In this document: one piece after another, positions 685 through 20,637 of the stretch
Layout: each line of letters begins with the position of its first letter
How positions within the stretch are numbered: position 1 is the first letter of the stretch
Virus record (IMG/VR): IMGVR_UViG_3300032282_004613
Origin: an uncultured virus (IMG/VR IMGVR_UViG_3300032282_004613)
Taxonomy: Duplodnaviria > Heunggongvirae > Uroviricota > Caudoviricetes
Length of the DNA stretch: 60,529 bases
Reading direction: 5' to 3' (one strand)
The notes under the pieces: model-generated
Seen by the model: only the letters and a program-made list of their open reading frames with translations
The model's database searches: none
What the model was told of the DNA's origin: nothing
Program-made: the position numbers and the translations under genes

Positions 685-691
685 TATTTAT
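685..691 (+). promoter_or_regulatory. Putative late promoter TATTTAT for the exported-protein cluster
   Basis: The same heptamer recurs just upstream of the terminase, portal, protease and scaffold genes. Confidence 0.55.
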
Positions 692-695: not shown

Positions 696-731
696 TGGCA
701 AGAAGAAACTAAATGTATCTCTATCATTAAA
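696..731 (+). repeat. Copy 1 of a ~33-nt dispersed repeat (copy 2 at 18037-18068)
   Basis: aagaaactaaatgtatctcta is identical at 703-723 and 18041-18061; flanking tggcaagaa and cattaaa are also shared. Confidence 0.9.
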
Positions 732-780
732 ATGATGGGGCATAGGTTAGGTAAAACTTCTATATCTAAAACTTAATTTT

Positions 781-1425
781 ATGCAGAAAATCAAAGCAAT
801 TTCAAGGAATATCGGTGATTACATCGTTTACGCCTTCCTATCATTAGCAATACTATTTGTTGTATGTGCACTTATCGCCCAAATCTTTTTTATCTTTTTA
901 GAGTTTAGCGGTAGAAGTGAAACTGCGGCACAAATAGCAAGAGAGTTTAACTGGAAATTTGACGGAACCTTTAAAAATGATCCAAATAACATATTCTATA
1001 ATGCTGACGAACATGTGTATGTTGAGAGTGTTGTTAATAATGTTAAGATAGGCAAATTGGCCGGAAATAGAAATTTAGAGTTTGGGGTAAAAAACATATT
1101 AGAGGAGTTTTTACAAGACAAAGGGTATGACTTAACACCAAACGCTCCAAATAAATTAAAGGTAGAAATTATATACCTAGACGTCTTAACTACAAAAAAG
1201 AACGTGTCAGTATTTCATAAAAACGAAGAAGAAGTAGTCATAAGAATGAAAGGTATTTTATATAAGGACGGAAAAAAAGAAAAGGAAATCGTTGTTGAAG
1301 AAGGTTCCTCAGAAATCTCAATGTCAAGTTTAATTGTTGATGAAGGAGGTCAGTTTAATCAAACATCTCTAAGTAATGCAATAAAGAAAACTTGCGATAA
1401 ATTGATTCAAAAATTATTTAGTTAA
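781..1425 (+). CDS. Membrane-anchored exported protein, possibly CsgG/TolB-N-like alpha/beta fold
   Basis: N-terminal TM helix. The pattern GVKNILEEFLQ...beta strands...FNQTSLSNAIKKTC parallels FNQSTISIATKKAL in the CsgG-like ORF at 7774. Confidence 0.5.
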   Translation: MQKIKAISRNIGDYIVYAFLSLAILFVVCALIAQIFFIFLEFSGRSETAAQIAREFNWKFDGTFKNDPNNIFYNADEHVYVESVVNNVKIGKLAGNRNLEFGVKNILEEFLQDKGYDLTPNAPNKLKVEIIYLDVLTTKKNVSVFHKNEEEVVIRMKGILYKDGKKEKEIVVEEGSSEISMSSLIVDEGGQFNQTSLSNAIKKTCDKLIQKLFS

Positions 1426-1427
1426 AA

Positions 1428-3086
1428 ATGAAAAAATTATTACTGTTATGCGGTTTATTTTTATTGTGGGTATCGGGCTACTCGCAATTAAGTGTTAATC
1501 AAAGTATTGTTCAACAACCACCATATAAAGTGGGTGACACAATATCTGTAAACTACACTTTAAGTAGAGGTACAACAAATCCAAAACCTCGTTATTTTTG
1601 GTTAAGATATCAATATAACAACAAAGCGTTGGAATATGTGTCAACCACATGGTCTCAAGGATCACAAACTCAGGTGTATTACACAAACTGGAGCAATTAT
1701 GTTTTTAATGCTAATGCCGGTGTTGCTGCAACTGATTTGTATGGTCAATATATGTTAACCCCTTGGGCTTATGTTACAAACGTAGATTGGAGTGTTGGTC
1801 AATTATCAATACAAAGAGTTGATAAATCTATGGACGGTTTATTTGCAACACAAAAGTACATAATTAAAGACAAGAGTGGTTATGATAATATTCATAAATT
1901 AGATTTATCATATGCTTTAGATAGTACTGCTGGTGCAAATATTTCACCACTAACAACAACTGGTGGATCTGTAGGATTAACCCAGGTTGTAGGTAACACA
2001 TCACAATTTAAGGTTAGAGTGTTATATCCAACAAACTACACTAACATTGCTGACCATAGCGTTCAATTAATGCCATTAAAAACCGATGGTAGTGGTGATA
2101 TTGATTGGACAAAACAACCTATTGCAACAAAAGCATTAGACGCCACTGGTGAAGCAACATTTATTAGCGGGATTAAAGTTGGTGATAGTTTAGGTATATT
2201 CATTGCACCTGCAATGCAGAAGTCATTCATGAATAACATTGTTACAGTTTCAGATGCATATAAAGCATTTTTAGGTGTTTCTCAAACAGACATTAATGGT
2301 AATGCAAATTATTTTACATATCCTAATTTAGAAAAACATGTGGGTAATGTGACTTTAGGCGATACAACATTTAATGAAAATGACGCTTATTTCTTGTTCT
2401 CATATGTTATGGGTATTAATGTATCTTCAAATACAGGTATACCAACATCGTCAGCACAAAGCATAAAATGGCAATCTGGTTTATTAAATCAAAGTTGGTT
2501 AGATGGTAAACCAAAATATAGGACATATATAACATCTTCAAATCAAGCAGTAGATGCTGTTTATGCTTGGGGTGGTGATATGGATTGGTCGCATTCAACT
2601 AGTCCTTCACAAATTGCTTCAAAAATTGCTAGTGGAAATTATAATAATTCTGTGAATCCAGGTTCTAGTGATATTAAGATTGGAACAATGTCTTCATTGG
2701 GTTATCAAGCAGCAGCATTAGAAACTGTTAATTTAAATGTCACATCAACATTGCAAAATGGTAAAGTGGTTCTAACAACAACCTTATCAAAAGAAGGACT
2801 GGCTGGTTTACAAGTTATAATGAATTATGACACAAATAAATTGTCTTTAGATAATGTAATATTTGATGCTGGGAGTACAATTACAAACTTCTCAACACAT
2901 GATAACGGTAGATTAACATTCGGATCAATAGATCAATTAAAAGTTGCTAGAATTAAAACTGGTACACCTTATAAATTAATATTTACACCAAAAGTACCAT
3001 TAACAAATACTTCGGGTTTATTCTTCTTTGTATTAGCAGATGCTGTTGATGCTGGGGGTAATAAAGTCAACCTAGTTGTTGAATAA
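1428..3086 (+). CDS. Secreted protein with dockerin-like segment and C-terminal cohesin-like domain
   Basis: Sec signal peptide; IVTVSDAYKAF / GNVTLGDTTFNENDAYFLFSYVMG (dockerin-like); GLQVIMNYDTNKLSL...YKLIFTP...DAVDAGG (cohesin-like). Confidence 0.6.
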   Translation: MKKLLLLCGLFLLWVSGYSQLSVNQSIVQQPPYKVGDTISVNYTLSRGTTNPKPRYFWLRYQYNNKALEYVSTTWSQGSQTQVYYTNWSNYVFNANAGVAATDLYGQYMLTPWAYVTNVDWSVGQLSIQRVDKSMDGLFATQKYIIKDKSGYDNIHKLDLSYALDSTAGANISPLTTTGGSVGLTQVVGNTSQFKVRVLYPTNYTNIADHSVQLMPLKTDGSGDIDWTKQPIATKALDATGEATFISGIKVGDSLGIFIAPAMQKSFMNNIVTVSDAYKAFLGVSQTDINGNANYFTYPNLEKHVGNVTLGDTTFNENDAYFLFSYVMGINVSSNTGIPTSSAQSIKWQSGLLNQSWLDGKPKYRTYITSSNQAVDAVYAWGGDMDWSHSTSPSQIASKIASGNYNNSVNPGSSDIKIGTMSSLGYQAAALETVNLNVTSTLQNGKVVLTTTLSKEGLAGLQVIMNYDTNKLSLDNVIFDAGSTITNFSTHDNGRLTFGSIDQLKVARIKTGTPYKLIFTPKVPLTNTSGLFFFVLADAVDAGGNKVNLVVE

Positions 3087-5686
3087 TGAGAAAAATTTTA
3101 TTAATATTTTTACTGGTTTGCTCGTTCATATCGAACGGGCAAACTGTTTATTCACCTGACCCTAAATCGTTTATAATAAACACTACTAGTCAAGATGCTA
3201 GTGGTTTTGAATTAACTGGATTTAGTGCAACATCGACTTTACTTACTTCAATAAGTTTAGTTAATCCTCCATCTGGTACAACATTTTATCTTAACGATAC
3301 AAGGGGGTTAATTGCAGCAAGTGGATTTACTTTAAGTGGTAATAAAACTCGTTTGGTGGTGACTGGTACAATGGCTAGCATTAATACTGCATTAGCGTCT
3401 TTAAAAATAAACACGGGTTCGGTAAAGGGTGATGTTAATATTTCTGTGGCCGCTACTGTTAATCAAGCAGGGTATTATTACAATGGTGTGAATGGGCATT
3501 TTTATAAACCAGTTGCAACAGGTGTATATTATACTGCAGCGAGGGCTGCGGCATTAGCAACAACATTCAAGGGACAGCAAGGGTATTTGGTGACTATTAC
3601 TTCTGCGGATGAAGATGCGTTTATTTATAATAATGTTCCACAAAGTAATATTTGGTTCGCGTTGACCGATGAGGTAACAGAAGCACAATGGAAAATTGAC
3701 GCTGGTCCTGAAAAGGGGACTTTAATTAAAACATCAAACGGACAAACCGCAGGAAACATACAAGGACAGTATAATAACTGGGCGGGTGGTGAGCCAAACA
3801 ATAGTGGTAATGAAGATTATGCTGTAACTAAATGGGGTGGTGGTACTCAATGGAACGATCTACCAAACACTTTTAATTGTGCGTATGTAATTGAATACGG
3901 AACTTGGTCTAATCCTGATGACGCAACATTTACTGAATTTTATACTAATAGCGTGACCCATTCAAATGGGGAAACCATAAAAGCACTATTTGGGTTTAAG
4001 TTCAATAATTCAATAGATAAAACCAAATTTACCGCACAAGTATTCAAAAGAAATGATTCATATTCAACTTGGGCTGCTGCGGATGGTTACAAATCATTAA
4101 GTGGGTTAGGTAAGGTATATCTTTCAAATCAAATAGACACCGCAAAAATATTCTCAACAGGTATCCCTTTAAGTGGTGTAAGCGATATGACTCAATTTTC
4201 TAACGCTGATATTGGTAAGGTTTATAGAATGACCATAACAGGGACACAAGGTGGCGGATGGGGAACTGATATCTACACAAATGATTCTTATATTCCAGCA
4301 ATGGCGGTACATGCTGGTATTGTGACAATTGGTCAAACAAAAGAAGTTTATATTAAAATAGTTGAAGGGCAAAATAGTTATCCAGGATCTACTCGTAACG
4401 GTATAACAACTTCTGAATGGGGTGGCTGGGGATTAAGTTATCAATTTGTTTCGGCGCCAACGTCATATAAAGCAACAATTTCACCCGGAGGGGCTGAATG
4501 GGCGTACGTAAACCCAAACGCAAGTTGGTTGAGTGGTAATAGTAGATTGTTAATTGACATGAGACAAGTAGGATCGTTAGACCCAACAAAAATATCAAAT
4601 GTAAAAATATTAGATGCTTATGATGGCCCTGTTACATTTATTTCAAACGATGGAACTTGGGCACAATATAATGTTCCGTCACCATTAACAAAAGTAACCG
4701 ACGGGACTTCAGCATATAACCAATATATTAGAAATGTAAATGGTTGGAATACTGATTATGCATTTCAATGCGGTGTTGGGTTTACTCAGCAAGGAGCATT
4801 CAAACAACATAGAATGGAATTACAAGAATATAACTCAACTGAGTTAAAAACATTATATAACAGTATTGTAACAGTAACAGATGTTTATTTAGCGTTTAAA
4901 GAACTTGTAAACGGAGGTTTATTTGGAAACCAAACTGGTAATGAATTTACGTATGGTATTCAATATAAAAATGCGGATGTTGACGATAACGGAGTATTTA
5001 ATGAGGCCGATTGTTTTGCATTATTACAAAACTTAACTGGTGTAAAAGATTTAGTACCATTATATACTTTAGATAATACGATTCGTTTAATTCCTGATTC
5101 AATTTATAATTCGATCGGCAAATCAAATTGGAACACTTTTCAAACTTTTGCCGGAAAATCATACGGATTTAGTTTATTAGACAACGTTATAAGTTATAAC
5201 TACGATTTGGCAGTTAGTTGGAAAGGTGACGTAAATCTATCACATTCAGCAATACCACCTTCAAATGGTATTACAACAATGTCTACCATTTCATCTAGAA
5301 CAATGAGTATTAGTAATGAAATTAATTCATCTATTTTGACCGAGATAGTTGATGGGGCGGTATATGCTTACATTACATTAGATCCTTTACAACAAAATGT
5401 TGTTGGTACGCAATTTAAATTGGACTATGATAATTCGGTTTTAAAATTTGAAAAAGTAGAATTTAAAACAAAAGGCAACCCTATGAACTACGGTTCTAAT
5501 AATGGTTCATATATTAATATTGGATCTTTAGTGACTGATGGTAGTACTACTTTAGATAACACCACAACATATAAAATTACATTTACACCAATAAAAAAGA
5601 TTGACAATGTTTTGGGTTTAATTTCAATATCTAATACTGACGCAGTAAATAAAAATGGGACTCAATTAACTATTAAAATATTATAA
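3086..5686 (+). CDS. Secreted multidomain adhesin-like protein: C-type lectin, LCCL, dockerin-like and cohesin-like domains
   Basis: Signal peptide; GYLVTITSADED..W.ALTD...W..GEPNN..ED...WND (C-type lectin); GTDIYTNDS.I..MAVHAG...SY.GSTRNGI.T (LCCL); ADVDDNGVFNEAD (dockerin Ca loop); GTQFKLDYDNSVLKF (cohesin). Confidence 0.75.
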   Translation: MRKILLIFLLVCSFISNGQTVYSPDPKSFIINTTSQDASGFELTGFSATSTLLTSISLVNPPSGTTFYLNDTRGLIAASGFTLSGNKTRLVVTGTMASINTALASLKINTGSVKGDVNISVAATVNQAGYYYNGVNGHFYKPVATGVYYTAARAAALATTFKGQQGYLVTITSADEDAFIYNNVPQSNIWFALTDEVTEAQWKIDAGPEKGTLIKTSNGQTAGNIQGQYNNWAGGEPNNSGNEDYAVTKWGGGTQWNDLPNTFNCAYVIEYGTWSNPDDATFTEFYTNSVTHSNGETIKALFGFKFNNSIDKTKFTAQVFKRNDSYSTWAAADGYKSLSGLGKVYLSNQIDTAKIFSTGIPLSGVSDMTQFSNADIGKVYRMTITGTQGGGWGTDIYTNDSYIPAMAVHAGIVTIGQTKEVYIKIVEGQNSYPGSTRNGITTSEWGGWGLSYQFVSAPTSYKATISPGGAEWAYVNPNASWLSGNSRLLIDMRQVGSLDPTKISNVKILDAYDGPVTFISNDGTWAQYNVPSPLTKVTDGTSAYNQYIRNVNGWNTDYAFQCGVGFTQQGAFKQHRMELQEYNSTELKTLYNSIVTVTDVYLAFKELVNGGLFGNQTGNEFTYGIQYKNADVDDNGVFNEADCFALLQNLTGVKDLVPLYTLDNTIRLIPDSIYNSIGKSNWNTFQTFAGKSYGFSLLDNVISYNYDLAVSWKGDVNLSHSAIPPSNGITTMSTISSRTMSISNEINSSILTEIVDGAVYAYITLDPLQQNVVGTQFKLDYDNSVLKFEKVEFKTKGNPMNYGSNNGSYINIGSLVTDGSTTLDNTTTYKITFTPIKKIDNVLGLISISNTDAVNKNGTQLTIKIL

Positions 5687-6033
5687 TGAAAAAGATTATT
5701 GTTTTGTTACTTATACTTTTTGTGTCTTGTAAAAAGACGGCAGTTTATCCAATAGAAGAACCACAAAACATAGTTAACTTTTTTGATAACGAACAAAACA
5801 CTGTAACTGATGGTTCACAAGTCACGTTTGACCTAAAAAACGCCGGTACTTACACCATGACTATGTTGGATTCCACTAGGAACCAGGTAGTTACTAGAGA
5901 AAAAATATCCGGCAAAATTGGGGCAAATGCCTTGAAGATTTACACCAAATCCTTGAATTCAAAGTATTTATATTTATTACTGAAGGATAGTGTTGGTAAC
6001 CAAATAGGTAAAACGCTATTAATTATAAAATAA
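5686..6033 (+). CDS. Small lipoprotein, Ig-like/T9SS-CTD-like
   Basis: Lipobox LFVSC; paralogous to the next ORF (N.LK.YT..L.S..Y...L.DS.GN..G.T). Confidence 0.6.
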   Translation: MKKIIVLLLILFVSCKKTAVYPIEEPQNIVNFFDNEQNTVTDGSQVTFDLKNAGTYTMTMLDSTRNQVVTREKISGKIGANALKIYTKSLNSKYLYLLLKDSVGNQIGKTLLIIK

Positions 6034-6040
6034 AAGAAAA

Positions 6041-6412
6041 ATGAAAAAAGTATTTTTAACATTATTTGGCACAATTGCCCTGTTTAGTTGTACTAAGCAT
6101 GATTTATCACCAATTCCTCCAGTTGCGGTTAATAGTGACTTGGTGATAGCAAAATCCGTAGGTATCAAATTGGAGACGCCATTTGTTACCTCTGAAGTTT
6201 CTATGAACGTAAAAACAGAAACATCACAAACGGTGACAATAAAAATAATTGACATTAGTAATAGAGTAGTGTCAAAAGAAACAGTATATGTTAATTCTGG
6301 TGATAATATACTTAAGGTATATACAACAGCATTACCATCTTCAGCATATAGAATTGCATTATTTGATTCTGCAGGAAATATGTTGGGGATCACAGATTTT
6401 AATAAAATATAA
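6041..6412 (+). CDS. Small lipoprotein resembling a T9SS type A sorting (CTD) domain
   Basis: Lipobox LFSC; VTIKIIDISNRVV...SGDN......ALPSSAYRIAL resembles the CTD consensus (I.I.D..G..V ... L..G.Y.V). Confidence 0.6.
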   Translation: MKKVFLTLFGTIALFSCTKHDLSPIPPVAVNSDLVIAKSVGIKLETPFVTSEVSMNVKTETSQTVTIKIIDISNRVVSKETVYVNSGDNILKVYTTALPSSAYRIALFDSAGNMLGITDFNKI

Positions 6413-6432
6413 AAAAACATAAAACAAAAACT

Positions 6433-6744
6433 ATGTCAGAAGAAGAACAAAACGACGGAACCTGGTCAGGTTTAAAAAAGACCATTGTTGGTGTAATTGG
6501 TACAGTAGTAACTGCTGGTGGAGTATTTTTAACTACTCTTTTTGGTGGCGGAGATAAAGAAGCAACCCCAGCGGCTGCAGCCCCAGTAATCAATATTACA
6601 AACTCAAACGCACAACAACAAGCGGCAGGAGGTAATAAAACTATAATCATCAATAAAGGCGGTGACGGTAAACCTGCAGAGCAACCAAAACCAAAACCTA
6701 AGAAAGAAGGTGATGAATTTAAAGAAGAAGCCCCAAAATGGTAA
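6433..6744 (+). CDS. Small single-pass membrane protein
   Basis: Hydrophobic IVGVIGTVVTAGGVFLTTLF followed by a low-complexity tail. Confidence 0.7.
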   Translation: MSEEEQNDGTWSGLKKTIVGVIGTVVTAGGVFLTTLFGGGDKEATPAAAAPVINITNSNAQQQAAGGNKTIIINKGGDGKPAEQPKPKPKKEGDEFKEEAPKW

Positions 6745-6747
6745 AAA

Positions 6748-6849
6748 ATGGATTGGTATAAAATAGGTGTAACATCTTTCTTTATACTTTTCTTTATATG
6801 GGCAATTAAACACGCGGAAAAACAAAGTAAACAAAATGGCAGAAAGTAA
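6748..6849 (+). CDS. Unannotated 33-aa membrane peptide
   Basis: MDWYKIGVTSFFILFFIWAIKHAEKQSKQNGRK*; fills the gap between two genes and has an aaaaATG start context. Confidence 0.55.
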   Translation: MDWYKIGVTSFFILFFIWAIKHAEKQSKQNGRK

Positions 6850-7426
6850 TCAAGCACCAGATGGTTTTAAACAACTCTTAAACTCAATGATGAAACGCAG
6901 ATGGTTAATATCTGCAATGGTATTAGGTGGGTTTATGATGATAATTGCGGGAATGTTCACAGCAATTGGGTTAAAAACACCAATGGCGGCAGAATGGAAA
7001 GAATTGTTATTATTGTTATTAGGTGCATTTATTGGTAGTTATGGTAAAATCATAGATTACTGGTTTAGTGACACAGATAAGGATAAGATGTTGGTTCAAA
7101 AGATGGATGAGGAAGATGGTGTATCATTGGGCAGTGTAAATGACATAAAAGAAAGTAACAAACCGTTTACTCCAATTATTCCAGATGCGTTTGTTCAAGG
7201 TGCACAAGCCGCTAGAGAATTGGCTGTTACTGAAAATAAACAAAATTTTGAACTGGAGAAGGATGAACAAGAGCATCGCCAAGAAATGGAAAAATTAGAG
7301 TTTTTACATCACGAACATAGACAATGTGAACACGTGTGGGGAGATTCTGATAACGATGGTGAAGAAGAATGTCAAAAATGTGGTAAGATAAAGGATTCAC
7401 ATCCTGATGACCATATTGAAGGATAA
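6836..7426 (+). CDS. Two-TM membrane protein with C-terminal Cys/His zinc-ribbon-like motif
   Basis: Two hydrophobic helices; C-terminal CEHVW...CQKCG. Confidence 0.7.
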   Translation: MAESNQAPDGFKQLLNSMMKRRWLISAMVLGGFMMIIAGMFTAIGLKTPMAAEWKELLLLLLGAFIGSYGKIIDYWFSDTDKDKMLVQKMDEEDGVSLGSVNDIKESNKPFTPIIPDAFVQGAQAARELAVTENKQNFELEKDEQEHRQEMEKLEFLHHEHRQCEHVWGDSDNDGEEECQKCGKIKDSHPDDHIEG

Positions 7427-7456
7427 AAAACAATAAACTAAACTAAAACGAAAAAC

Positions 7457-7717
7457 ATGGGATTTATTAAAGATTTATTTAACGACAATAACACAATTAA
7501 CGAAAAATCGGTAGTTGGGTTCCTATCATTTGGAATGATGGTTATAGCCCTATTTGTTGACCTTATCACTGGTTGGATGGGTAAACCTCTAATCATTAAT
7601 GAGTTCATTTTTGATGGGTTTCTGGTTATCACACTAGGTGCTTTTGGTATCGCATCGGTAGATAAGTGGATAAATAATAAGGGGAAGAAAACGGAGGAAG
7701 AAACAACTGAAGGATAA
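7457..7717 (+). CDS. Small two-TM membrane protein (holin-like)
   Basis: 86 aa, two TM segments, charged C-terminus. Confidence 0.5.
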   Translation: MGFIKDLFNDNNTINEKSVVGFLSFGMMVIALFVDLITGWMGKPLIINEFIFDGFLVITLGAFGIASVDKWINNKGKKTEEETTEG

Positions 7718-7719
7718 TT

Positions 7720-7746
7720 AAAAAGGGAGTTTAACTCCCTTTTTTT
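7720..7746 (+). terminator. Intrinsic terminator
   Basis: aaaagggagt-tta-actccctttt followed by a T-tract. Confidence 0.8.
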
Positions 7747-14190: not shown

Positions 14191-15454
14191 AAGGTTTTAA
14201 TGTTAAATTTGGAACAAAACTATAATGATAATTTTCTGTGTTACTTATTATTTCTTTTATTGATGAAAAATACATACCATGAATATCTTCATCACTTAGG
14301 TCACATAATTTTTTAATATGATTCATTAACGAATATAATACAAATTCTTTCTCAACGTATGGGTCAACGCGACCTGTAATCTCCTCGTATTTGTCACAAT
14401 ATAATTCTGAATTAAAAGAAAATCCTTGGGTTTTTAAAAATGAATAATAATCGGGACCATTAATACCACAAAACGGTGTAAAGGTTGCCAATGGTTTCCA
14501 CGTTTTTTCGCTTATCCATGTTCTATCTGGCGTACCAAAAAATGTTTCAATAAAAATTTCAAAATAAGATGAAATTTGTAACACAAGATTAGAAGTATGA
14601 AATCCAACTTGTCTTAATGTATAAATTTGATTTTTTTGCGATCTTTCAAACATCATAGCCATAAAATCAGTGTCCGCTCTTTCAACAACATCATCGGCCA
14701 TTGAATCGATTAATAATGGGAAATTTTTTGAGAACGGGTGGTTATACATATATTCAACTTCATAATCAGAATTATACATTTTTGCTGTTTCATTTATTGG
14801 AAAAATATTTAAATCAGGGAAAGATATTTTACCCAATTTATCATATCCATTTTCAAATAAAAATTTAACCAGTCGCCATCTTGTTAATTTTGGGTGGTGG
14901 TTCAAAAAGAAAAATCTATTTTGTTTTTTAAATTGTGAAGTTGATATTAGTGATCTTAAAAAATTAATATTTTCTGGCGGTAAACAATATGAATGCGGTT
15001 TATCATCCCAAAAAAATACATTGTAAGGGTCTATATTAATTATTTGAGCATTACATGTAAATAATATCCATCTAATATTTGGGTACTTAGCCATTATATT
15101 TTTCATTATATTATGGTATTTCTCGTTATAATACTCAATATATGAAAATTCAAAAATGATTTTATTTGTGTCTGGATTATCTTTTAACATCTTATCAATC
15201 CACACTTCCATGTTTGTAGATCTTTCCGGAGGTGTAAAATCATTATCGGTAAACATTGTTGCAATCATTAAATTATATATGATTACATTATCGTTGCTTG
15301 AATCTAGATATGATGAGATACTTTTTTTAACTAACCCAAGTTCAACCATTCTATTAAATTTTGAAAAAAATTTGTGGTGTGATACTGGCTCTTGCGATTC
15401 TTTAATTGTTCTTTCGTGCGCTTCAGTAATGTAAAACTTTATTTTTGCTGACAT
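14171..15454 (-). CDS. Putative glycosyltransferase-like protein
   Basis: F.FLN...K..R and EIFIET...ISEKTWKPL..F.PF motifs recall GT-B/GT10-like phage proteins. Confidence 0.45.
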   Translation of the reverse strand: MSAKIKFYITEAHERTIKESQEPVSHHKFFSKFNRMVELGLVKKSISSYLDSSNDNVIIYNLMIATMFTDNDFTPPERSTNMEVWIDKMLKDNPDTNKIIFEFSYIEYYNEKYHNIMKNIMAKYPNIRWILFTCNAQIINIDPYNVFFWDDKPHSYCLPPENINFLRSLISTSQFKKQNRFFFLNHHPKLTRWRLVKFLFENGYDKLGKISFPDLNIFPINETAKMYNSDYEVEYMYNHPFSKNFPLLIDSMADDVVERADTDFMAMMFERSQKNQIYTLRQVGFHTSNLVLQISSYFEIFIETFFGTPDRTWISEKTWKPLATFTPFCGINGPDYYSFLKTQGFSFNSELYCDKYEEITGRVDPYVEKEFVLYSLMNHIKKLCDLSDEDIHGMYFSSIKEIISNTENYHYSFVPNLTLKPFEFIAK

Positions 15455-16458
15455 AATTTTTCGTATTTTTCTTTTTCTATGTTTTTAAATTCACTAACAT
15501 TTATTGTTTTATCGTTAATGAATTCATTATTTACTTTTTCAAATAATCCTGAGTCGATTATATATCTAAAATCACCATATTGATTTAAATGGTCACCGAA
15601 AGACACTGGTTTTACGTTATAACTAAGATAACCAATTGTACCTATATTTTCTAACGCAAATTCATCGATTCCACCATATTCTATTCTATCGTTATTGTAA
15701 AGAATAAAATTATCCCAATCTATTAAATTTTTAAAACTGGCCCATTTATTTTTATTGTAAATTATGGATTCTCTCCAAATTTTTGGTAAAATAAATCTTT
15801 CATTTTTATCTTCAATTATCTTTTCAACTCCTTTTATTTTTTCAACATCAACCATATCTAAGCCATTCAAAAAACTATCCGATCTGTCAAAATTAAATCC
15901 AGTTAATGCAGAATTAAAAAATAAAAAAGAATATTTTATTTTTTTAACTTTAAGATAATTTTGTAAATTAATAATATCAAAATGATATTGAGCCGCTCTT
16001 TCACTAGGCGAACTATGTGATAAATTATCTAATAAAAAATTTCTTAGATTTTTATTTGAAATACTTTGTATTGTATTATATTGATTAGCAATATTAACAA
16101 AACCAAATTTATCGAACCCGACAGAATATAAAGTATCATTACTTTTTGTTCTCCAGGTATTCATGTCAAAATTCATGGTAACAAAACTAAAGTTTTCAAA
16201 AAAATCAATATCGTACATTGTTGTTACCCTAAACATACTCGACCATTGACAAACAACATATATATCATCAGTAGATACTCCTTTATTAATTAGTTTTTCA
16301 ACTGCGCTTATTGCTGACATTAATTGGTATTTACTACCAAGGGAACTACCTTGTAGGTTGTAAAACTTGGTATTTTTACAATATCCAAGATTTTGTAAAT
16401 CATGGAATGCTCTTGCTTGTTGACCATATGAACAACCTGTAAAAACAATATATTTCAT
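15439..16458 (-). CDS. SGNH/GDSL-like protein
   Basis: FTGCSYG, NL..SSLGS, VVCQWS..R and GDHLN motifs. Confidence 0.55.
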   Translation of the reverse strand: MKYIVFTGCSYGQQARAFHDLQNLGYCKNTKFYNLQGSSLGSKYQLMSAISAVEKLINKGVSTDDIYVVCQWSSMFRVTTMYDIDFFENFSFVTMNFDMNTWRTKSNDTLYSVGFDKFGFVNIANQYNTIQSISNKNLRNFLLDNLSHSSPSERAAQYHFDIINLQNYLKVKKIKYSFLFFNSALTGFNFDRSDSFLNGLDMVDVEKIKGVEKIIEDKNERFILPKIWRESIIYNKNKWASFKNLIDWDNFILYNNDRIEYGGIDEFALENIGTIGYLSYNVKPVSFGDHLNQYGDFRYIIDSGLFEKVNNEFINDKTINVSEFKNIEKEKYEKLCQQK

Positions 16459-17000
16459 CGGTCTCTTTTTTGTAATGTTGGTTTATCTGTTGGCCATTCC
16501 ATTTGATACTCTGGATCGTTCCATTTAACAACGCCTTGCTCATTTGCGTCCACATAACCATCTTTGTAAAATAGATTATAATGAAACATACAATCTGTTA
16601 ACGCATAATGTCCGTTTGCAAATCCAGGAGGAACTAATACTTGATTTCTATCCTTTTCAGTTATCATAAAAGATTCCCATTCACCATAAGTTTCTGATTG
16701 GGTTCTCATATCTAAAACAATTAAGTATATATCCCCTACCGCTGCTTGAACTAATTTCCAGGTCTTATTGTCATAATGTAGTCCTCTTAATACCCCTTTG
16801 TATGATTTTGAAAATCTACCGTGGATACTAATTTCACTTTTTTCATAATGAATGTGCCTCATTACTGGATGTTCTTCGCTATGGAAAGTGGTGAATATTT
16901 CACCTCTGTATTCGCGATAAATTGAAGGTGTAAAAATCGGTACTTGAAAACCAAATTTTTTTGATGGAGTTTCAATAAACTCATCCCATTTATTACTCAT
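16455..17000 (-). CDS. rfbC: dTDP-4-dehydrorhamnose 3,5-epimerase
   Basis: S.KGVLRGLH, KLV....G.I...LDMR..S.TYG.W, VPPGFANG and WNDP motifs. Confidence 0.9.
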   Translation of the reverse strand: MSNKWDEFIETPSKKFGFQVPIFTPSIYREYRGEIFTTFHSEEHPVMRHIHYEKSEISIHGRFSKSYKGVLRGLHYDNKTWKLVQAAVGDIYLIVLDMRTQSETYGEWESFMITEKDRNQVLVPPGFANGHYALTDCMFHYNLFYKDGYVDANEQGVVKWNDPEYQMEWPTDKPTLQKRDR

Positions 17001-17001
17001 A

Positions 17002-17970
17002 TTAAAAATTTTGTGCGTAACCTAAAGGAAAACCATTTCTAAATTCAGATGTCATTCTAGGGATCAATACTTGATAGGTCTTCATTAATTCTTTTATACC
17101 GTCATCTAATGTCCATTTTGGTTTCCATCCAGTTTTTTCAATTTTTTCGTTCGACACAATGTAATCTCTTTTGTCTGGATCTTCATAAAAGTCAGAATAT
17201 GTTATTGCAAAATCAGGTATAAATTCTTTTATTTTTTCTAACAGTTCTTGCTTCGATAGGTTGGCATCACTTAATCCAACATTATATACATTACTATTCA
17301 TTGTTGAATAATTTTCTAAGGAAAATGCAAATACATTTGCAACATCTTGAATATGTATAAAATTTCTTTTAAAATTTTTCTCAAATACGGTTATGTATTT
17401 ATCGGTCATTGCTTTGTATACAAACTCATTTACCAATAAATCCGTCCTCATTCTAGGTGACGATCCAAATACTGTGGCTAATCTAAAACATATCGCATTA
17501 GTATATTGTAATAAGATTCTTTCCGACTCACATTTACTTTCACCATAAACAGATATTGGATTTAATGGAGAATCTTCAGTGCAAAATTTATCGTCTTTCC
17601 CAATACCATATCCGCTATTAGTATTTGGGTACAGTATCATTTGTTCTTTAGAAATAAAATTAAGCAAGTTTTTAATTTGTGTATGGTTAACCTCCCAGGA
17701 TAACTTTGGATCTGCTTTACATGCTGGAAATCCAACAATTGCCGCCAACGGGATTATAACATCGTGTAACTCAACTTGTTGTTTTAATAAATTTTCATTT
17801 CTAATATCTCCATAAATAAAATTATATTTTGGGTTATAAGTGAATTGAAGTGGTGATAATTGTTTAAATAACAAACTATCAATAACGGTTACACTATGAC
17901 CAAGGTCTAAAAATTTTTTAGTGATTACGGAACCTAGGTATCCGGCACCGCCGGTAATAAGAATTTTCAT
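17002..17970 (-). CDS. NAD-dependent sugar epimerase/dehydratase
   Basis: Likely true start MKILITGGAGYLG at 17970; YGESK (YxxxK) motif. Confidence 0.9.
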   Translation of the reverse strand: MKILITGGAGYLGSVITKKFLDLGHSVTVIDSLLFKQLSPLQFTYNPKYNFIYGDIRNENLLKQQVELHDVIIPLAAIVGFPACKADPKLSWEVNHTQIKNLLNFISKEQMILYPNTNSGYGIGKDDKFCTEDSPLNPISVYGESKCESERILLQYTNAICFRLATVFGSSPRMRTDLLVNEFVYKAMTDKYITVFEKNFKRNFIHIQDVANVFAFSLENYSTMNSNVYNVGLSDANLSKQELLEKIKEFIPDFAITYSDFYEDPDKRDYIVSNEKIEKTGWKPKWTLDDGIKELMKTYQVLIPRMTSEFRNGFPLGYAQNF

Positions 17971-17995
17971 AGTATTAATATAAGGAAAATTATGG

Positions 17996-18068
17996 AAAAA
18001 ACAAACCCCCGAGATAGAAATCAGGGGGTTTTTCTTTGGCAAGAAACTAAATGTATCTCTACATTAAA
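17996..18068 (-). ncRNA. Candidate small antisense RNA (~65-70 nt)
   Basis: - strand reads TATATT box (18071-18076), AAUGUA-GAGA-UACAUU hairpin, UAGUUUCUUGCCA, then a terminator. The 5' half is complementary to the 696-731 leader. Confidence 0.45.
18003..18034. terminator. Intrinsic terminator (possibly bidirectional)
   Basis: aaaccccc...gggggttt stem flanked by A and T tracts. Confidence 0.8.
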
Positions 18069-18084
18069 CTAATATAGATAAAAA

Positions 18085-18423
18085 TTATTTATTTTCAAAG
18101 GCCTCGTATAAACTTTTTATTTCAGCACATCTTTCATATTCTTCTAATTCTTCATAATATGGTATTAGTTGATCTATTAGGATATCATATTCGTCTTTTT
18201 TAAATATAAATTCGGTGTCCCATGAAAGTGGACCAATATCAGTAGAAACTAACAAAGTTAAACTACGTTTCCTGCTAATTTTTAATTCATTATAGATCTG
18301 TAAAACACCTTCATAAATTTGACCTTTGTTTGTGTCATAAAGTTGTTTAAAATCTCGATATTTTTTTTTTTCGATTTGCACCGTTATAAATGGTGTTTTT
18401 CTACTATTTGGTGTCTTTTTCAT
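18085..18423 (-). CDS. Hypothetical protein
   Basis: 112 aa; C-terminal EELEEYERCAEIK resembles a UVR-type helical motif. Confidence 0.6.
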   Translation of the reverse strand: MKKTPNSRKTPFITVQIEKKKYRDFKQLYDTNKGQIYEGVLQIYNELKISRKRSLTLLVSTDIGPLSWDTEFIFKKDEYDILIDQLIPYYEELEEYERCAEIKSLYEAFENK

Positions 18424-19447
18424 TTTTAAATGGCTTTGAGTATGATGGGTATATTAGTTTCCAAATTATGTGGTGTGTTTGTTTTCCATTATACATTGCG
18501 AATAGTAATGATGAATGTGGATATTGTTTTGCTTTTTCAGCAAACTCTTTTTTAGTTTCGATCAATGAAAATATTGAATTGAATATGTCATTATAATCAT
18601 TATCAATGTTTTCAAACCTTACTGTTAAATCACGGGCCGTTTCTTTAACCCAGTTATAAAATTCATCTGGAACTTTGTTAAGGATCTCATCAAATGACTT
18701 ACCGTCTTTTAAAATTTCCCAAATATCTCTATTTGATATGTTTGTTAAAATTTTATGTAATCGTTTATACTCGTCTCCTTTGATTTTCATACGAAAACCA
18801 TTCTTGAAACGAATAACGTATCCTTCTCTATCTTTGCTAATTTCTTCTTGCAATAGATCGTATCCTTCGCCCCAAGTTTTATATGTTGTGACAACTTCAA
18901 ATCCAGCGTCTTGCATCCAAAATAAACTACTGTCTGGTATTTCGTCACCAGTTTCAGTATGAATACCACCAATAACAACTAATTTTTCTTCGCTCCCATA
19001 ATCAACAACAATTCTATTTTCCGGATAGATAATTTCAAACAAATATGTGTTATCTTTTCTTAAAGCACTAATATCATGTTTATCAAGAATTTCTTTTCCT
19101 TTAATTGCTTGTGGTGATGTAAATGATCCACGCGTTGCTAATATCCATTCATTTTCATAATTAAAAAGAATACCTAAAGATCCATCCATCTTTTCATAGA
19201 CAACATAATCTTCATTTGGGATATCTTCAGGTTTATGTTCTTCGTAGTTAAAAAATTTCTTAAATGGTCTTGCAACAATATCACCTTTTGAGTTGGTCAC
19301 CAATCCACGACACATAATAGTTACATCGTCCCACAATCTATCGTATTGAACTTTTGGTGTATAGTTCCAAATAGTTAAGTCGAATGTAGGGTGGGCTTGT
19401 TTATGTAACAAACCGTCTTGATAGTATTTTTCTAAAATTTCTAACAT
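18404..19447 (-). CDS. RNA ligase, T4 Rnl1/RnlA-like
   Basis: Likely start MLEILEK at 19447; CRGLV, RPF.KFFN, EKMDGSL (motif I), FEII, EGYV and KIK. Confidence 0.85.
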   Translation of the reverse strand: MLEILEKYYQDGLLHKQAHPTFDLTIWNYTPKVQYDRLWDDVTIMCRGLVTNSKGDIVARPFKKFFNYEEHKPEDIPNEDYVVYEKMDGSLGILFNYENEWILATRGSFTSPQAIKGKEILDKHDISALRKDNTYLFEIIYPENRIVVDYGSEEKLVVIGGIHTETGDEIPDSSLFWMQDAGFEVVTTYKTWGEGYDLLQEEISKDREGYVIRFKNGFRMKIKGDEYKRLHKILTNISNRDIWEILKDGKSFDEILNKVPDEFYNWVKETARDLTVRFENIDNDYNDIFNSIFSLIETKKEFAEKAKQYPHSSLLFAMYNGKQTHHIIWKLIYPSYSKPFKNEKDTK

Positions 19448-19449
19448 TA

Positions 19450-19677
19450 TTATATGCGTCGGTATATGCCAGTAACAACTGACCATTTAAACCAAGTGAG
19501 AGACAAATATAAACCAACAAACCCATCCGCAAAAGATTTTGGTGAATGAGTTTCTAAATAAATGTCAATTGTGGGTAAAATGTGAAAAGACCATTGGTGA
19601 GTAAATGTGTTAAAGTGTGTCCTCATATAAGGTTTTGGTTTTATTGTTTCAGTAAATGAATTAATAAATTTACTCAT
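19450..19677 (-). CDS. Hypothetical protein
   Basis: 75 aa ORF tightly packed within the operon. Confidence 0.55.
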   Translation of the reverse strand: MSKFINSFTETIKPKPYMRTHFNTFTHQWSFHILPTIDIYLETHSPKSFADGFVGLYLSLTWFKWSVVTGIYRRI

Positions 19678-20100
19678 CTATAGTTTAACTTCAAACCTGT
19701 TTTTCATTTGTATTATTTTGTCTTCTGGAACCCCGTGGATATTTGATCCATTATGTTTATTTTCAACTATAACACTATGAACCCTATATCCATATCTTTC
19801 AGCCATTTCGTAATATGGTATCATTTCCCAATCTTGGGTAAACGTATTAGCGACAACGATCTTAAATGTCTCCAACTTCATTTTTTCAGCACATCTAACT
19901 TGACAAGAATTATGTGCTTCTTTTAATTTACTACCGTCAAAATGATATTCACCCCTTTCATTTACAAAAAAATCATCTGCAGATAAAACGTCTACCGACC
20001 CTCCTGGGGTTGATAATATTACAGATGCCAAAGTGGTTTTTCCTGAACCAGGTAACCCCCTAAGTAATATTAATTCTCCTTTATATGTAACATCATCCAT
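19678..20100 (-). CDS. P-loop kinase, polynucleotide kinase-like (AAA_33)
   Basis: LRGLPGSGKTT, SADDFF, AH..CQ, VVANT and N.HGVP motifs. Confidence 0.8.
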   Translation of the reverse strand: MDDVTYKGELILLRGLPGSGKTTLASVILSTPGGSVDVLSADDFFVNERGEYHFDGSKLKEAHNSCQVRCAEKMKLETFKIVVANTFTQDWEMIPYYEMAERYGYRVHSVIVENKHNGSNIHGVPEDKIIQMKNRFEVKL

Positions 20101-20132
20101 AACAGATAAATATATTGGTCAAAAAATTGAAA

Positions 20133-20372
20133 TTATTTATTAGTGTAATGATCCCAGTAAAATCTTCTAACAACAGATCCTAATTCGGCGTCGTTAGGGT
20201 ACATATTAACATATTTTCTTGGAATAGTGATATGGGTGTTATCGGACATGTTTTCGTAACAATTTTTACATAATTGTCCAGCACCTTCGATGTAGCCAGT
20301 TCTTGTATCTACATGATCTTCAATATCATGTGGTGTTTCTTTACCACACATGATACATGTGTCTTTTGCCAT
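20133..20372 (-). CDS. Small Cys4 zinc-finger-like protein
   Basis: CIMCG...YIEGAGQLCKNC. Confidence 0.65.
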   Translation of the reverse strand: MAKDTCIMCGKETPHDIEDHVDTRTGYIEGAGQLCKNCYENMSDNTHITIPRKYVNMYPNDAELGSVVRRFYWDHYTNK

Positions 20373-20398
20373 AATTTAAAATTTACAAAATAAGAAAG

Positions 20399-20419
20399 GT
20401 TGGGCCATTACAGCCCAAC
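20399..20419 (-). terminator. Hairpin/terminator after the lipoprotein gene
   Basis: gttggg...cccaac stem followed on the - strand by ctttctt. Confidence 0.55.
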
Positions 20420-20422
20420 ACT

Positions 20423-20605
20423 TTATTTTACTGTTGTAGAATCAGTTGGAATTTTTGCTACAGTAGTATCATTACCACTAACAGCACCCGTATCAACCGC
20501 TACAGCAGTAGTTGAATCTGTTTGTTCAGTTGTGGCAGATCCTGAGCCACAAGATACGATTGTCATTGTGATAATCGCAACTAGAAAATATGTAATTTTT
20601 CTCAT
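20423..20605 (-). CDS. Small low-complexity lipoprotein
   Basis: Likely start MRKITYFLVAIITMTIVSC (lipobox); Thr/Asp/Ser-rich tail with DST/DTT repeats. Confidence 0.7.
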   Translation of the reverse strand: MRKITYFLVAIITMTIVSCGSGSATTEQTDSTTAVAVDTGAVSGNDTTVAKIPTDSTTVK

Positions 20606-20637
20606 AATAATTAAATATAAGAAAAAAAATTGAAAAA

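What the first reader, a model, noticed from the sequence alone, without database searches (positions are those of the whole stretch)
17996..18076. Candidate trans-acting antisense sRNA against the leader of the surface-module operon 17 kb away
Seen: a 21-nt exact match (703-723 = 18041-18061), extending to about 33 nt with two small gaps; both copies are intergenic. Copy 1 lies just downstream of a + strand TATTTAT motif. Copy 2 lies in a - strand context between a TATATT box (similar to those before the genes starting at 10791, 17970 and 20605) and a strong terminator, and forms AAUGUA-GAGA-UACAUU (GNRA tetraloop). The two transcripts would therefore be complementary. Inference: a ~65-nt RNA, or the 3' UTR of the RNA-ligase operon, silences or times the envelope module.
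Basis: partly seen in the sequence, partly recalled or inferred. Interest (0 to 1): 0.75.

Follow-up and report, generated by a model that had tools for sequence, protein, structure and literature searches.

The report
Phage small RNA mirroring a late-operon leader
An uncultured freshwater giant phage and its relatives carry a roughly 70-base RNA gene whose middle mirrors the first 25-30 bases of the message for a late operon of secreted and membrane proteins 6-17 kb away; the two sequences change together between phage lineages, so the RNA most likely controls that operon.

Summary
703-723 equals 18041-18061, there are only two copies in the window, and chance expects 0.03. Relatives give the meaning. 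Fourteen related contigs hold both copies 6-17 kb apart on the same strand.

Copy 1 starts at the predicted 5' end of an mRNA made from a TATTTAT box. That box also precedes the terminase, portal and prohead protease genes. Copy 2 is read on the minus strand. It lies between a conserved sigma-70-like promoter (TTGACW, 17 nt, TAnnnT; 35 of 35 distinct loci) and an intrinsic terminator. The terminator's G.U pairs work only on the minus strand, and its stem shows compensatory changes.

The two copies co-vary in five sequence types. Predicted cognate duplexes are -33 to -43 kcal/mol, against -17 to -25 between most types.

In two lineages the target is a leaderless mRNA and the RNA covers its AUG.

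No RNA data exist. The transcript, its ends and the direction of control (probably repression) are inferred. Nothing in Rfam matches. The closest known case is the c4 RNA of P1/P7. I rate this a new variant of a known kind.

The parts
685..691 (+). TATTTAT box, the late-type promoter element of the target operon
   Evidence: Of 38 TATTTAT in the window, 17 are intergenic (7% of the window is intergenic). 15 of those 17 lie up to 150 nt before a same-strand gene, including terminase 28691, portal 30515 and prohead protease 33862. The reverse orientation TATAAATA does so only twice. The box is conserved before the homologous gene in at least 20 of 55 related loci.
696..725 (+). Copy 1: predicted 5'-terminal 30 nt of the operon mRNA, the target site of the small RNA
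   Evidence: duplexfold gives 26 pairs with one 3-nt bulge, -36.1 kcal/mol; shuffled leaders give -18.9 +/- 3.5. It is the best trans site in the whole window: -36.5 against -24.9 for the next, with a mean of -9.3 and sd 3.0 over 8064 windows.
696..780 (+). Unusually long 5' leader of gene 781-1425
   Evidence: The box lies 90 nt before the ATG. For 13 of the other 14 same-strand boxes the distance is 5-36 nt. The leader folds into a long irregular hairpin, -19.2 kcal/mol, z -2.9.
781..7744 (+). Target operon: 8 ORFs (781-1425 ... 7457-7717), ended by the hairpin terminator 7720-7744
   Evidence: ORFs. N-terminal signal-peptide, lipobox or membrane-helix-like starts by my own reading of the translations. 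Weak Pfam hits to LCCL, C-type lectin and cohesin-like domains. No PHROG family. Terminator.
18093..18098 (-). -35-like hexamer TTGAAA, inside the last codons of gene 18085-18423
   Evidence: In 35 of 35 distinct related loci a TTGACA, TTGACT or TTGAAA lies 17 nt (16 nt in 2) before a TAnnnT. It overlaps coding sequence, so coding constraint may add to its conservation.
18071..18076 (-). -10-like hexamer TATATT
   Evidence: T1, A2 and T6 are invariant while the spacer and the other positions vary (TATATT, TATAAT, TAAATT, TACATT, TAGAAT, TATACT, TATCCT and others).
17996..18065 (-). Predicted small RNA, about 69-70 nt (start 6-7 nt after the -10, end in the U run)
   Evidence: It folds as a 5' hairpin, an open stretch and a terminator: -19.7 kcal/mol, z -2.9, 0 of 200 shuffles as good. 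The same architecture is seen in 35 of 35 distinct related loci, where the minus-strand fold always beats the plus-strand fold.
18050..18065 (-). 5' hairpin AAUGUA-GAGA-UACAUU (GNRA-type loop)
   Evidence: Relatives keep a 5' hairpin, with GAGA, GUAA, GAAA or 8-nt GA-rich loops, in two registers. This helix shows only one-sided changes (U.G to U-A), no double-sided ones.
18037..18062 (-). Anti-leader: the 26 nt that pair with 696-724 of the mRNA (copy 2 read on the minus strand)
17996..18031 (-). Intrinsic terminator hairpin (18031-18003) and U tail
   Evidence: In 14 aligned relatives 7 of 10 stem pairs show changes on both sides. The covariation score is 0.310 against 0.162 in shuffles (0 of 500 as high) and at most 0.124 when the partner is slid. 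There are many G.U pairs, which the plus strand could not form.
18085..20112 (-). RNA-repair operon that runs into the small RNA: TATTTAT 20106-20112, kinase-like 20100-19678, ORF 19677-19450, Rnl1-type RNA ligase 19486-18404, 112-aa ORF 18423-18085
   Evidence: Pfam RNA_lig_T4_1 2e-19 and AAA_33 1e-12. PHROG 562 2e-73. TATTTAT 6 nt before the ATG. The scan lists one terminator-like hairpin on the minus strand between 20100 and 18032, at 18396-18378 inside ORF 18423-18085.

Best explanation
The locus 17996-18098 (minus strand) is the gene of a roughly 70-nt base-pairing RNA. The RNA is made from its own housekeeping-sigma-type promoter. It probably also arises as the 3' end of the RNA-ligase operon transcript. 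It consists of a 5' hairpin with a GA-rich loop, a U-rich open stretch and an intrinsic terminator.

From its 5' end to the foot of the terminator it is complementary to the first 25-35 nt of the mRNA that starts at about 696-698, behind the late-type TATTTAT box. That mRNA encodes an operon of secreted, lipoprotein-like and membrane proteins (781-7717). The open A-rich 5' tail of the mRNA and the open U-rich stretch of the RNA can meet first, and the duplex can then spread into both hairpins.

The likely result is repression or delay of the operon. Possible routes are covering the 5' end or start of the message, refolding the leader so that the start region is closed, and making a long duplex that RNase III could cut.

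Shown by sequence comparison: the gene architecture, the strand, the complementarity and its co-evolution. Inferred: that the RNA is made, where it starts, and the sign and route of control.
For: (1) The layout is conserved. Fourteen related contigs hold both copies on one strand, 6-17 kb apart.

(2) The copies co-vary. There are five sequence types (window GGCAAGAAACTAAATG; GACAAAAAACAATAAATG; GACAAAAAATAAATG; GGACAAAATAAATAAATG; GGACAAAATAAATAAAAG), each present in both copies of its own genome. 13 of 25 aligned columns show at least 2 matched states. The true pairing of five type representatives is the best of 120 permutations.

(3) Energies fit. Nine cognate duplexes give -33.2 to -43.0 kcal/mol, most pairs of different types -16.5 to -25.6, and shuffled leaders means of -17.4 to -20.8. 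Five more pairs give -29.4 to -38.5.

(4) The strand is clear. 15 of 15 and then 35 of 35 distinct loci fold better as minus-strand RNA, for example -19.6 against -7.8. 7 of 10 terminator pairs have double-sided changes. In relatives the T run follows the hairpin only on the minus strand.

(5) A promoter is conserved. TTGACW or TTGAAA, a 17-nt spacer (16 nt in 2) and TAnnnT occur in 35 of 35 loci, with the hairpin starting 6-7 nt later in most.

(6) One column shows U-A, U.G and C-G between mRNA and RNA (column 23). All three pair only in the proposed strand sense.

(7) Copy 1 and copy 2 differ by a 3-nt bulge in the window. In G054 they differ by a 7-against-4-nt internal loop. An RNA duplex tolerates this; a protein operator would tolerate it less well.

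(8) In G053 and G054 the homologous gene is leaderless (TATTTAT, 4 nt, ATG), and the RNA pairs with the AUG and the first ten or so codons.

(9) Blocking leader nt 1-30 lowers the predicted openness of the start region in 4 of 10 leaders: 0.75 to 0.47 in the window, and 0.66 to 0.53, 0.72 to 0.41 and 0.69 to 0.33 in relatives.

(10) The target gene is the only short-range (within 36 nt) exception among the TATTTAT-driven genes: it has a 90-nt distance from box to ATG.
Against: No transcript has been seen. None of the 20 listed sequencing runs is RNA.

The promoter is a consensus match. Such matches are not enriched in this AT-rich DNA (99 found against 118 expected in 20 kb). Its -35 lies in coding sequence, and my search pattern required TAnnnT.

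If the host is a Bacteroidota bacterium, as several hints suggest, its main sigma factor is described as reading TAnnTTTG and TTTG (PMC7366714, passages). The promoter found here does not match that well.

The pairs are not perfect. A C.A mismatch sits in the middle of the duplex in four of the nine genomes (G013, G003, G002 and the L029 contig), and A.C mismatches occur in G057 and G058. Differences between the copies show no clear excess of wobble-compatible over incompatible transitions.

Identity of two DNA copies could also come from a shared binding protein or from gene conversion.

The refolding effect is predicted for only 4 of 10 leaders; the other 6 show none. G053 pairs weakly: -29.4 against shuffles of -20.1 +/- 4.2, with the best shuffle at -35.0.

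The lineages are related, so counts of genomes overstate the number of independent events.
Confidence: 0.72

Rival explanations
1. There is no separate small-RNA gene. The anti-leader is simply the 3' untranslated end of the late RNA-ligase operon mRNA (20112 to 17996, minus strand), and it pairs with the surface-operon leader from there or after processing. The promoter-like hexamers are chance or coding constraint.
For: The operon starts at a TATTTAT box 6 nt before its first ATG, and the conserved terminator behind copy 2 ends it. The -35 hexamer lies in the last codons (Leu-Thr) of the 112-aa gene. Sigma-70-like matches are not enriched in the window.
Against: The -10 lies in non-coding DNA. 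It keeps T1, A2 and T6 at a fixed 17-nt distance in 35 of 35 distinct loci although the spacer sequence is free. In most loci the 5' hairpin begins 6-7 nt after it. The two routes do not exclude each other; sRNAs at mRNA 3' ends with a promoter of their own are known (recalled).
Confidence: 0.15
2. Both copies are DNA sites for one phage-encoded DNA-binding regulator that sits just downstream of two promoters, the late one at 685 and the one at 18076. RNA pairing plays no part.
For: Each copy begins a few bases after a promoter-like box, where a repressor would block elongation. Direct repeats that change together between lineages are also what operators of one repressor do (general knowledge of lambdoid immunity regions).
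Against: The site is about 25-30 nt long and not palindromic. The copies differ by a 3-nt insertion (window) or a 7-against-4-nt block (G054), which would shift half of a protein site. Five freely diverged types would need the protein to change each time. The likeness ends exactly at the mRNA 5' end on one side and at the foot of a strand-specific terminator on the other. There are only two sites in a complete 335-kb genome.
Confidence: 0.07
3. The repeats have no regulatory role. They are kept alike by recombination or gene conversion, or they serve as linkers for module exchange or deletion of the 6-17 kb between them, as repeated promoter-stem-loop cassettes (PeSL) do in T4-type phages (recalled, not read here).
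For: They are direct repeats flanking a segment of very variable length and content: 6.1, 9.8, 11.6, 14.0, 14.5 and 17.3 kb. The phage has a T4-like capsid protein.
Against: The same difference between the two copies (C against T at column 19) persists in four type-C contigs, so the copies are not being homogenised. The likeness is confined to the transcribed part. None of the joints listed for four DNA runs links 723 to 18062, although 105 joints were not shown. There are two copies, not a dispersed family.
Confidence: 0.04

Closest known systems
c4 antisense RNA of phages P1 and P7 (immI region; Citron and Schuster 1990, as described in review PMC12197685, passages read)
   Same: A phage-encoded RNA of about 70-77 nt, not overlapping its target, that pairs with a message of the same phage. 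RNA and target differ together between related phages and so define specificity types (P1 against P7).
   Different: c4 belongs to temperate plasmid-prophages and controls the antirepressor. According to the review it acts around the ribosome-binding site through short complementary stretches exposed in loops. Here the phage appears virulent and T4-like. The target is the extreme 5' end of a late operon for surface proteins 6-17 kb away, and the match is one long stretch of 25-35 nt. No Rfam family, C4 included, reached its gathering score, and no C4 hit appeared at E up to 10.
Trans-encoded sRNAs of Bacteroidota such as GibS (Ryan et al. 2020, PMC7366714, passages read)
   Same: AT-rich RNAs with long open seeds (30-50 nt in GibS) that pair with the 5' region or start of Shine-Dalgarno-less mRNAs and repress them, in bacteria without Hfq or ProQ. 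This would fit the probable host: 4 of 72 genes have an SD-like motif, and the nearest cultured capsid relative is a Flavobacterium phage.
   Different: GibS is a host RNA with several metabolic targets, and its seed is at an unstructured 5' end. Here the RNA is phage-borne, has one extended target and starts with a hairpin. The weak Rfam hit to FopS (24.7 bits against a gathering score of 56) lies on the other strand.
sRNAs at mRNA 3' ends with their own promoter (DapZ or MicL type in enterobacteria; recalled, not read here)
   Same: The RNA shares the terminator of the upstream operon and has an internal promoter overlapping the end of the last gene, so it can come both from its own start and from the long mRNA.
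   Different: Those are Hfq-dependent host RNAs with 7-12-nt seeds and several targets. This one has near-complete complementarity to one phage leader.
Plasmid copy-control and hok/sok-type antisense RNAs (CopA/CopT, RNA I/RNA II; recalled)
   Same: Both partners carry complementary hairpins (GA-rich loop on the RNA, CU-rich loop on the leader in the GACAAAAAATAAA-type relatives) beside open tails. Extended duplexes are likely RNase III substrates. Orthogonal specificity types exist.
   Different: Those RNAs are cis-encoded, made from the opposite strand of their target. Here the two genes are 6-17 kb apart and must be kept complementary by selection.
FasX-ska type control by pairing at the extreme 5' end of an mRNA (Streptococcus; recalled)
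   Same: The sRNA pairs with the very first nucleotides of the message, far from the start codon.
   Different: FasX stabilises its target. Here the leaderless variants, where the AUG is covered, point to repression instead.

Membership tests
Trans-encoded base-pairing small RNA (generic kind) | A non-coding transcription unit with its own promoter and an intrinsic terminator | tested here: met
   By sequence only. A conserved -35/-10 pair occurs in 35 of 35 distinct loci. The terminator shows 7 of 10 pairs with double-sided changes. The predicted RNA reads AUG UAG at its start, so there is no ORF. No transcript data.
Trans-encoded base-pairing small RNA (generic kind) | Complementarity to a target mRNA encoded elsewhere, kept by co-variation | tested here: met
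   14 contigs hold both partners. 13 of 25 columns have at least 2 matched states. Permutation test 1 of 120. Cognate duplexes -33 to -43 kcal/mol.
Trans-encoded base-pairing small RNA (generic kind) | The RNA is expressed and changes target expression | not testable with these tools
   No RNA run holds the phage. No cultured relative carries the target gene.
C4 antisense RNA family (P1/P7; Rfam) | Match to the family's covariance model | tested here: not met
   cmscan of 17900-18200 at E up to 10 lists 23 weak matches. None is C4 and none reaches its gathering score.
FopS family of Bacteroidota sRNAs (Rfam RF04319) | Score at or above the gathering threshold on the transcribed strand | tested here: not met
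   24.7 bits against 56, E 0.089, on the plus strand 17961-18040.
3'-end-derived sRNA with internal promoter | Shares the terminator of an upstream co-oriented operon, with no terminator in between | tested here: met
   Operon 20112 to 18085. One minus-strand terminator-like hairpin is listed at 18396-18378 inside ORF 18423-18085, and the conserved one is the hairpin at 18027-18006.
3'-end-derived sRNA with internal promoter | Primary 5' end inside or just after the last gene | not testable with these tools
   Only the conserved promoter-like hexamers are available.
PeSL cassettes of T4-type phages (recalled definition: many dispersed copies of early promoter plus stem-loop between genes) | Many dispersed copies per genome | tested here: not met
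   2 copies in the window. 2 real copies in a complete 335-kb relative.
Operator sites of a DNA-binding repressor | Fixed-length site, usually with dyad symmetry | tested here: not met
   The site is not palindromic. The copies differ by 3-nt and by 7-against-4-nt length changes.

The most novel reading that the evidence does not exclude
The RNA-leader pairs may be specificity determinants in competition between co-infecting giant phages. This would be an RNA-based mutual exclusion or incompatibility system. An RNA made from a host-type promoter soon after entry would shut off the late surface-protein operon of any later-arriving phage of the same type. Selection to escape a rival's RNA would have driven the split into mostly orthogonal types (window type, -36 for its own leader against -17 to -25 for the others). 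A weaker version: the RNA splits the late genes into two timing classes by setting a threshold that the operon's mRNA must exceed.
Probability: 0.12. Interest if true: 0.85.

Novelty: new variant of a known kind. Interest (0 to 1): 0.68.

Why it matters
Base-pairing RNAs that phages use on their own genes are known mainly from temperate coliphages: c4, sar, OOP and the P4 CI RNA. The review I read (PMC12197685, passages) lists mainly cis-antisense RNAs and host-directed sRNAs. My two literature searches found no trans-encoded RNA with co-varying target in a virulent or giant phage.

Here comparative data alone define a whole RNA family: 35 distinct loci in public viral contigs, one clear target, a defined strand and architecture, and natural compensatory mutants in five types. 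That makes a testable case of post-transcriptional control of a late operon in uncultured freshwater giant phages, probably of Bacteroidota, where RNA chaperones of the Hfq type are absent.

The natural orthogonal pairs could also serve as ready-made, mutually non-interfering RNA switches.

Earlier notes of this same scan report similar anti-leader RNAs in other uncultured phages (unchecked here). The kind may therefore be common and overlooked, which lowers the surprise of this one case and raises the interest of the class.

Tried and rejected
- **RNA evidence.** No RNA holder is listed among 20 runs that share words with 13000-22000. Expression could therefore not be examined.
- **DNA contigs.** Contigs of four runs were laid on 500-18300. 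No listed joint links the two repeats, but 105 joints were not shown and contigs drop rare forms.
- **Rfam.** Nothing reaches a gathering score at either copy.
- **Cultured phages.** There is no DNA match for 1-20000 or 500-4500 and no protein match for the first operon protein.
- **Own assembly.** It is not held, so whole-genome copy number was taken from relatives.
- **Bacterial and archaeal genomes.** 53 pattern matches were found. None has the promoter-leader or the terminator-promoter setting; one regex hit in Hafnia is a false positive.
- **First viral pattern scan.** It was repeated with a stricter pattern.
- **Wobble bias.** I looked for an excess of wobble-compatible differences between the copies and found none.
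- **Upstream mini-ORF.** The window leader reads ATG GCA AGA AGA AAC TAA from 695, and two other leader types have similar ORFs. I rejected this as a general feature. The commonest leader type has no start codon there. The ATG lies only 2-3 nt after the box, against 4-6 nt in the leaderless genes.
- **Transcription attenuation.** A hairpin followed by a U run before the ATG occurs only in two leader types.
- **T9SS sorting domains.** None was found in the operon proteins.
- **More distant clade.** A clade with another leader type (complete 202-kb record G026) has only the leader copy and no second copy. The system is therefore confined to the clade with the long G(G)ACAAAA-type or GGCAAG-type leaders.
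- **MAFFT alignment.** It placed the window's 5' hairpin out of register, so helix 1 counts only the other 12 sequences.

Full report
**Observation.** The two stretches are as described. 703-723 and 18041-18061 are identical over 21 nt. With a 3-nt and a 1-nt gap the likeness runs from 697-730 to 18038-18068. A 20-mer with up to 3 mismatches occurs only at these two places in the 60.5-kb window. It expects 0.03 by chance, and 0 of 100 shuffles give two. The 13-nt core alone is no commoner than chance elsewhere. Both copies are intergenic and on the same DNA strand.

**What the window is.** It is AT-rich (31.7% G+C) and densely coding. It holds a terminase, a portal, a prohead protease, a T4-type major capsid protein, PhoH, dUTPase, a ClpB-like ATPase and an Rnl1-type RNA ligase. 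The nearest cultured capsid relative is a Flavobacterium myovirus at 42% identity over 47% of the query. Only 4 of 72 crude gene calls have a Shine-Dalgarno-like motif. Related viral contigs reach 335 kb and are rated complete. This is therefore an uncultured freshwater giant phage with T4-like head genes. Its host is unknown; the missing Shine-Dalgarno motifs and the capsid relative hint at Bacteroidota. The DNA runs that share its words are labelled as freshwater, lake or river metagenomes.

**Copy 1.** TATTTAT (685-691) is an oriented promoter-like box. Of 38 occurrences, 17 lie in the 7% of the window that is intergenic. 15 of those 17 precede a same-strand gene within 150 nt, among them terminase, portal and protease. 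The reverse orientation does so twice. In 6 of the 15 the ATG follows after only 4-6 nt. Transcription should therefore start about 5-7 nt after the box, and many messages would be leaderless or nearly so. By that rule the operon mRNA starts at 696-698, exactly where the repeat begins. The gene at 781 is the only one in this short-range set with a long leader (90 nt from box to ATG). The operon (781-7717, ended by a strong hairpin at 7720-7744) encodes proteins with signal-peptide, lipobox or membrane-helix starts by my own reading. It gives weak LCCL, lectin and cohesin-like hits.

**Copy 2.** On the minus strand it lies between TTGAAA, 16 nt, TATATT (18098-18071) and a hairpin with a U tail. 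The predicted RNA (about 18064 to 17996, 69 nt) folds into a 5' hairpin AUGUA-GAGA-UACAU, an open stretch and the terminator. The energy is -19.7 kcal/mol and 0 of 200 shuffles fold as well. It also forms the 3' end of the RNA-repair operon that starts at a TATTTAT box at 20106-20112.

**Relatives.**
- The first operon protein has 55 related loci in IMG/VR. By my reading, at least 20 keep TATTTAT followed by a G(G)ACAAAA... leader.
- In three distant relatives the same 17-nt motif occurs a second time 10-14 kb downstream on the same strand. It lies next to a hairpin whose T run, or whose G.U pairs, fit only the minus strand, and after a homologue of the 112-aa gene.
- A protein search in 42 records found that gene in 16. 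An RNA locus was present in all those where the homologue is clear, except one record (G014). That record also lacks the long leader.
- A stricter pattern scan gave 69 loci: 11 leaders, 53 RNA loci and 5 chance hits.
- In all, 14 contigs hold both partners, 6.1 to 17.3 kb apart.
- I found no contig in which a long leader is present and the RNA is demonstrably missing from the expected place. All such cases run off the contig end.
- A more distant clade with another leader has no second copy in a complete 202-kb record.
- None of 53 pattern matches in representative bacterial and archaeal genomes has the setting.

**The RNA gene.** All 35 distinct loci have TTGACA, TTGACT or TTGAAA, a 17-nt spacer (16 nt in 2) of free sequence and a TAnnnT hexamer. 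A 5' hairpin follows, 6-7 nt after the hexamer in most. Then come a U-rich open stretch of 16-21 nt, a G+C-rich hairpin and a U run. Two rows in the listing picked an inner hexamer, and I read them as. Predicted lengths are 64-82 nt. In 35 of 35 the minus-strand RNA folds better than the plus strand, for example -19.6 against -7.8. On a MAFFT alignment of 14 of these loci, 7 of 10 terminator pairs show changes on both sides. The covariation score is 0.310 against 0.162 +/- 0.025 in shuffles (0 of 500 as high) and at most 0.124 with slid partners. The 5' hairpin shows only one-sided changes, but it exists in two registers and with GAGA, GUAA, GAAA or longer GA-rich loops. The window and G006 were out of register in that alignment and count as gaps there.

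**Co-evolution of the two copies.** Five sequence types occur, and each genome carries the same type at both places. Over 25 aligned columns, 13 show at least two different states that are matched in both copies. With one representative per type, the true assignment is the best of 120 permutations. Predicted duplexes of nine cognate pairs are -33.2 to -43.0 kcal/mol. They span mRNA nt 1 to 30-47 and RNA nt 1 to about 33. Most pairs of different types give -16.5 to -25.6, the two GGACAAAATAAATAAA types cross-react, and shuffled leaders average -17.4 to -20.8. Five further pairs give -29.4 to -38.5. In the window the leader is by far the best trans site for the RNA body: -36.5, next best -24.9, mean -9.3, sd 3.0 over 8064 windows.

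One column shows U-A, U.G and C-G between mRNA and RNA in different genomes, which is an RNA-level signature. Another column carries a C.A mismatch in four of the nine contigs, and two genomes have A.C mismatches. Overall I see no wobble bias.

**Mechanism.** Leaders have an open A-rich 5' tail of 13-17 nt followed by a hairpin. In the commonest type that hairpin has a CU-rich loop complementary to the GA-rich loop of the RNA. Pairing can therefore start between two open stretches and spread.

Three observations point to repression.
1. In G053 and G054 the homologous gene is leaderless, and the RNA pairs with its AUG and first codons, which encode a signal peptide.
2. If leader nt 1-30 are blocked, the freed 3' arm is predicted to pair with the region just before the AUG in 4 of 10 leaders. 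The window's start-region openness falls from 0.75 to 0.47. The other 6 show no change.
3. A 24-26-bp duplex is the kind of substrate RNase III cuts (general knowledge; RNase III is reported in Bacteroides, PMC7366714).

The promoter types suggest that the RNA can be made before, or independently of, the late genes. It could then act as a threshold or timer, but this is inference. The direction of control is the weakest step. I put repression at about 60% given that pairing occurs.

**Rivals.**
- A pure 3'-UTR origin is compatible with everything except the conserved -10, and it may act alongside the RNA's own promoter.
- A shared DNA-binding protein is disfavoured by the length changes between copies, the lack of symmetry, the free divergence into types and the exact coincidence with transcript boundaries.
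- Recombination linkers or conversion are disfavoured by stable differences between the copies across lineages, and by the fact that there are only two copies.

**Comparison with known systems.** No Rfam family fits. The closest described system is the c4 RNA of P1/P7, where RNA and target also differ together between phages (review PMC12197685, passages read). It differs in life style, target gene, target position and form of complementarity. The long open seed resembles Bacteroides GibS (PMC7366714, passages read). The position at an operon's 3' end with an own promoter resembles DapZ- or MicL-type sRNAs (recalled). My searches for giant-phage or lytic-phage sRNAs acting on phage mRNAs (listings and one review read in passages) found no equivalent. 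Notes of this scan describe similar anti-leader RNAs in other uncultured phages. I did not test them. They suggest a wider class.

**Verdict.** It is a new variant of a known kind of regulator.

Noticed in passing
window, e.g. 7748, 24822, 28680, 30502, 33839, 34602, 55955 (+); 20106, 40645, 44681, 53072, 55931 (-): TATTTAT(A) is an oriented promoter-like box before structural and other genes. It often follows a terminator hairpin directly, with the ATG only 4-6 nt later in six cases. Many messages of this phage would then be leaderless. The box reads as the reverse complement of the T4 late promoter TATAAATA (recalled), but it is used in the opposite orientation.
   Followed up: partly
loci L308 (G053) and L309 (G054), upstream of the homologue of gene 781-1425: In two lineages the target gene has a different N-terminus (a signal peptide) and is leaderless. 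Its first codons resemble the non-coding leader start of the other lineages. The long leaders may descend from a once-coding 5' end.
   Followed up: partly
window 695-712: The leader can be read as a five-codon ORF (ATG GCA AGA AGA AAC TAA) starting 3 nt after the TATTTAT box. Two other leader types have similar short ORFs, but the commonest type does not.
   Followed up: partly
window 12971-12998 (+): A perfect TTGACA, 16 nt, TATAAT match lies on the plus strand, inside or opposite the minus-strand ORF 12678-13460 and near a small plus-strand ORF 12955-13134.
   Followed up: no
window 59347-60414: Long runs of 9-nt periodic repeats (GGn-ACn-TCn and the like) indicate a Gly-X-Y, collagen-like protein region at the window's end.
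   Followed up: no
window 54042-54590: Four tandem copies of a 141-nt unit (62-71% alike) lie inside minus-strand coding sequence.
   Followed up: no
window 9920-10117: A low-complexity Lys/Glu/Ser-rich repeat region lies in ORF 9379-10767.
   Followed up: no
window 10779 (+), 17976 (-): A second box, TATATTA, lies 6 nt before the ATGs at 10791 and 17970. It has the same spacing as between the small RNA's TATATT and its predicted first base. It may be a second promoter class for leaderless messages.
   Followed up: no
loci L074, L075, L072 (G002, G003, G004): In these relatives a plus-strand gene ends directly at the RNA's terminator (convergent layout), and no plus-strand T run follows the hairpin. 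Read-through from that gene would be antisense to the small RNA. In the window, minus-strand sugar-nucleotide genes lie there instead.
   Followed up: no
loci L035, L036, L049, L057 upstream of the target homologue: In a more distant clade a tRNA-like 3' end (GGTTCGACTCCC...CCA context) and a terminator lie just before the TATTTAT box of the homologous gene.
   Followed up: no
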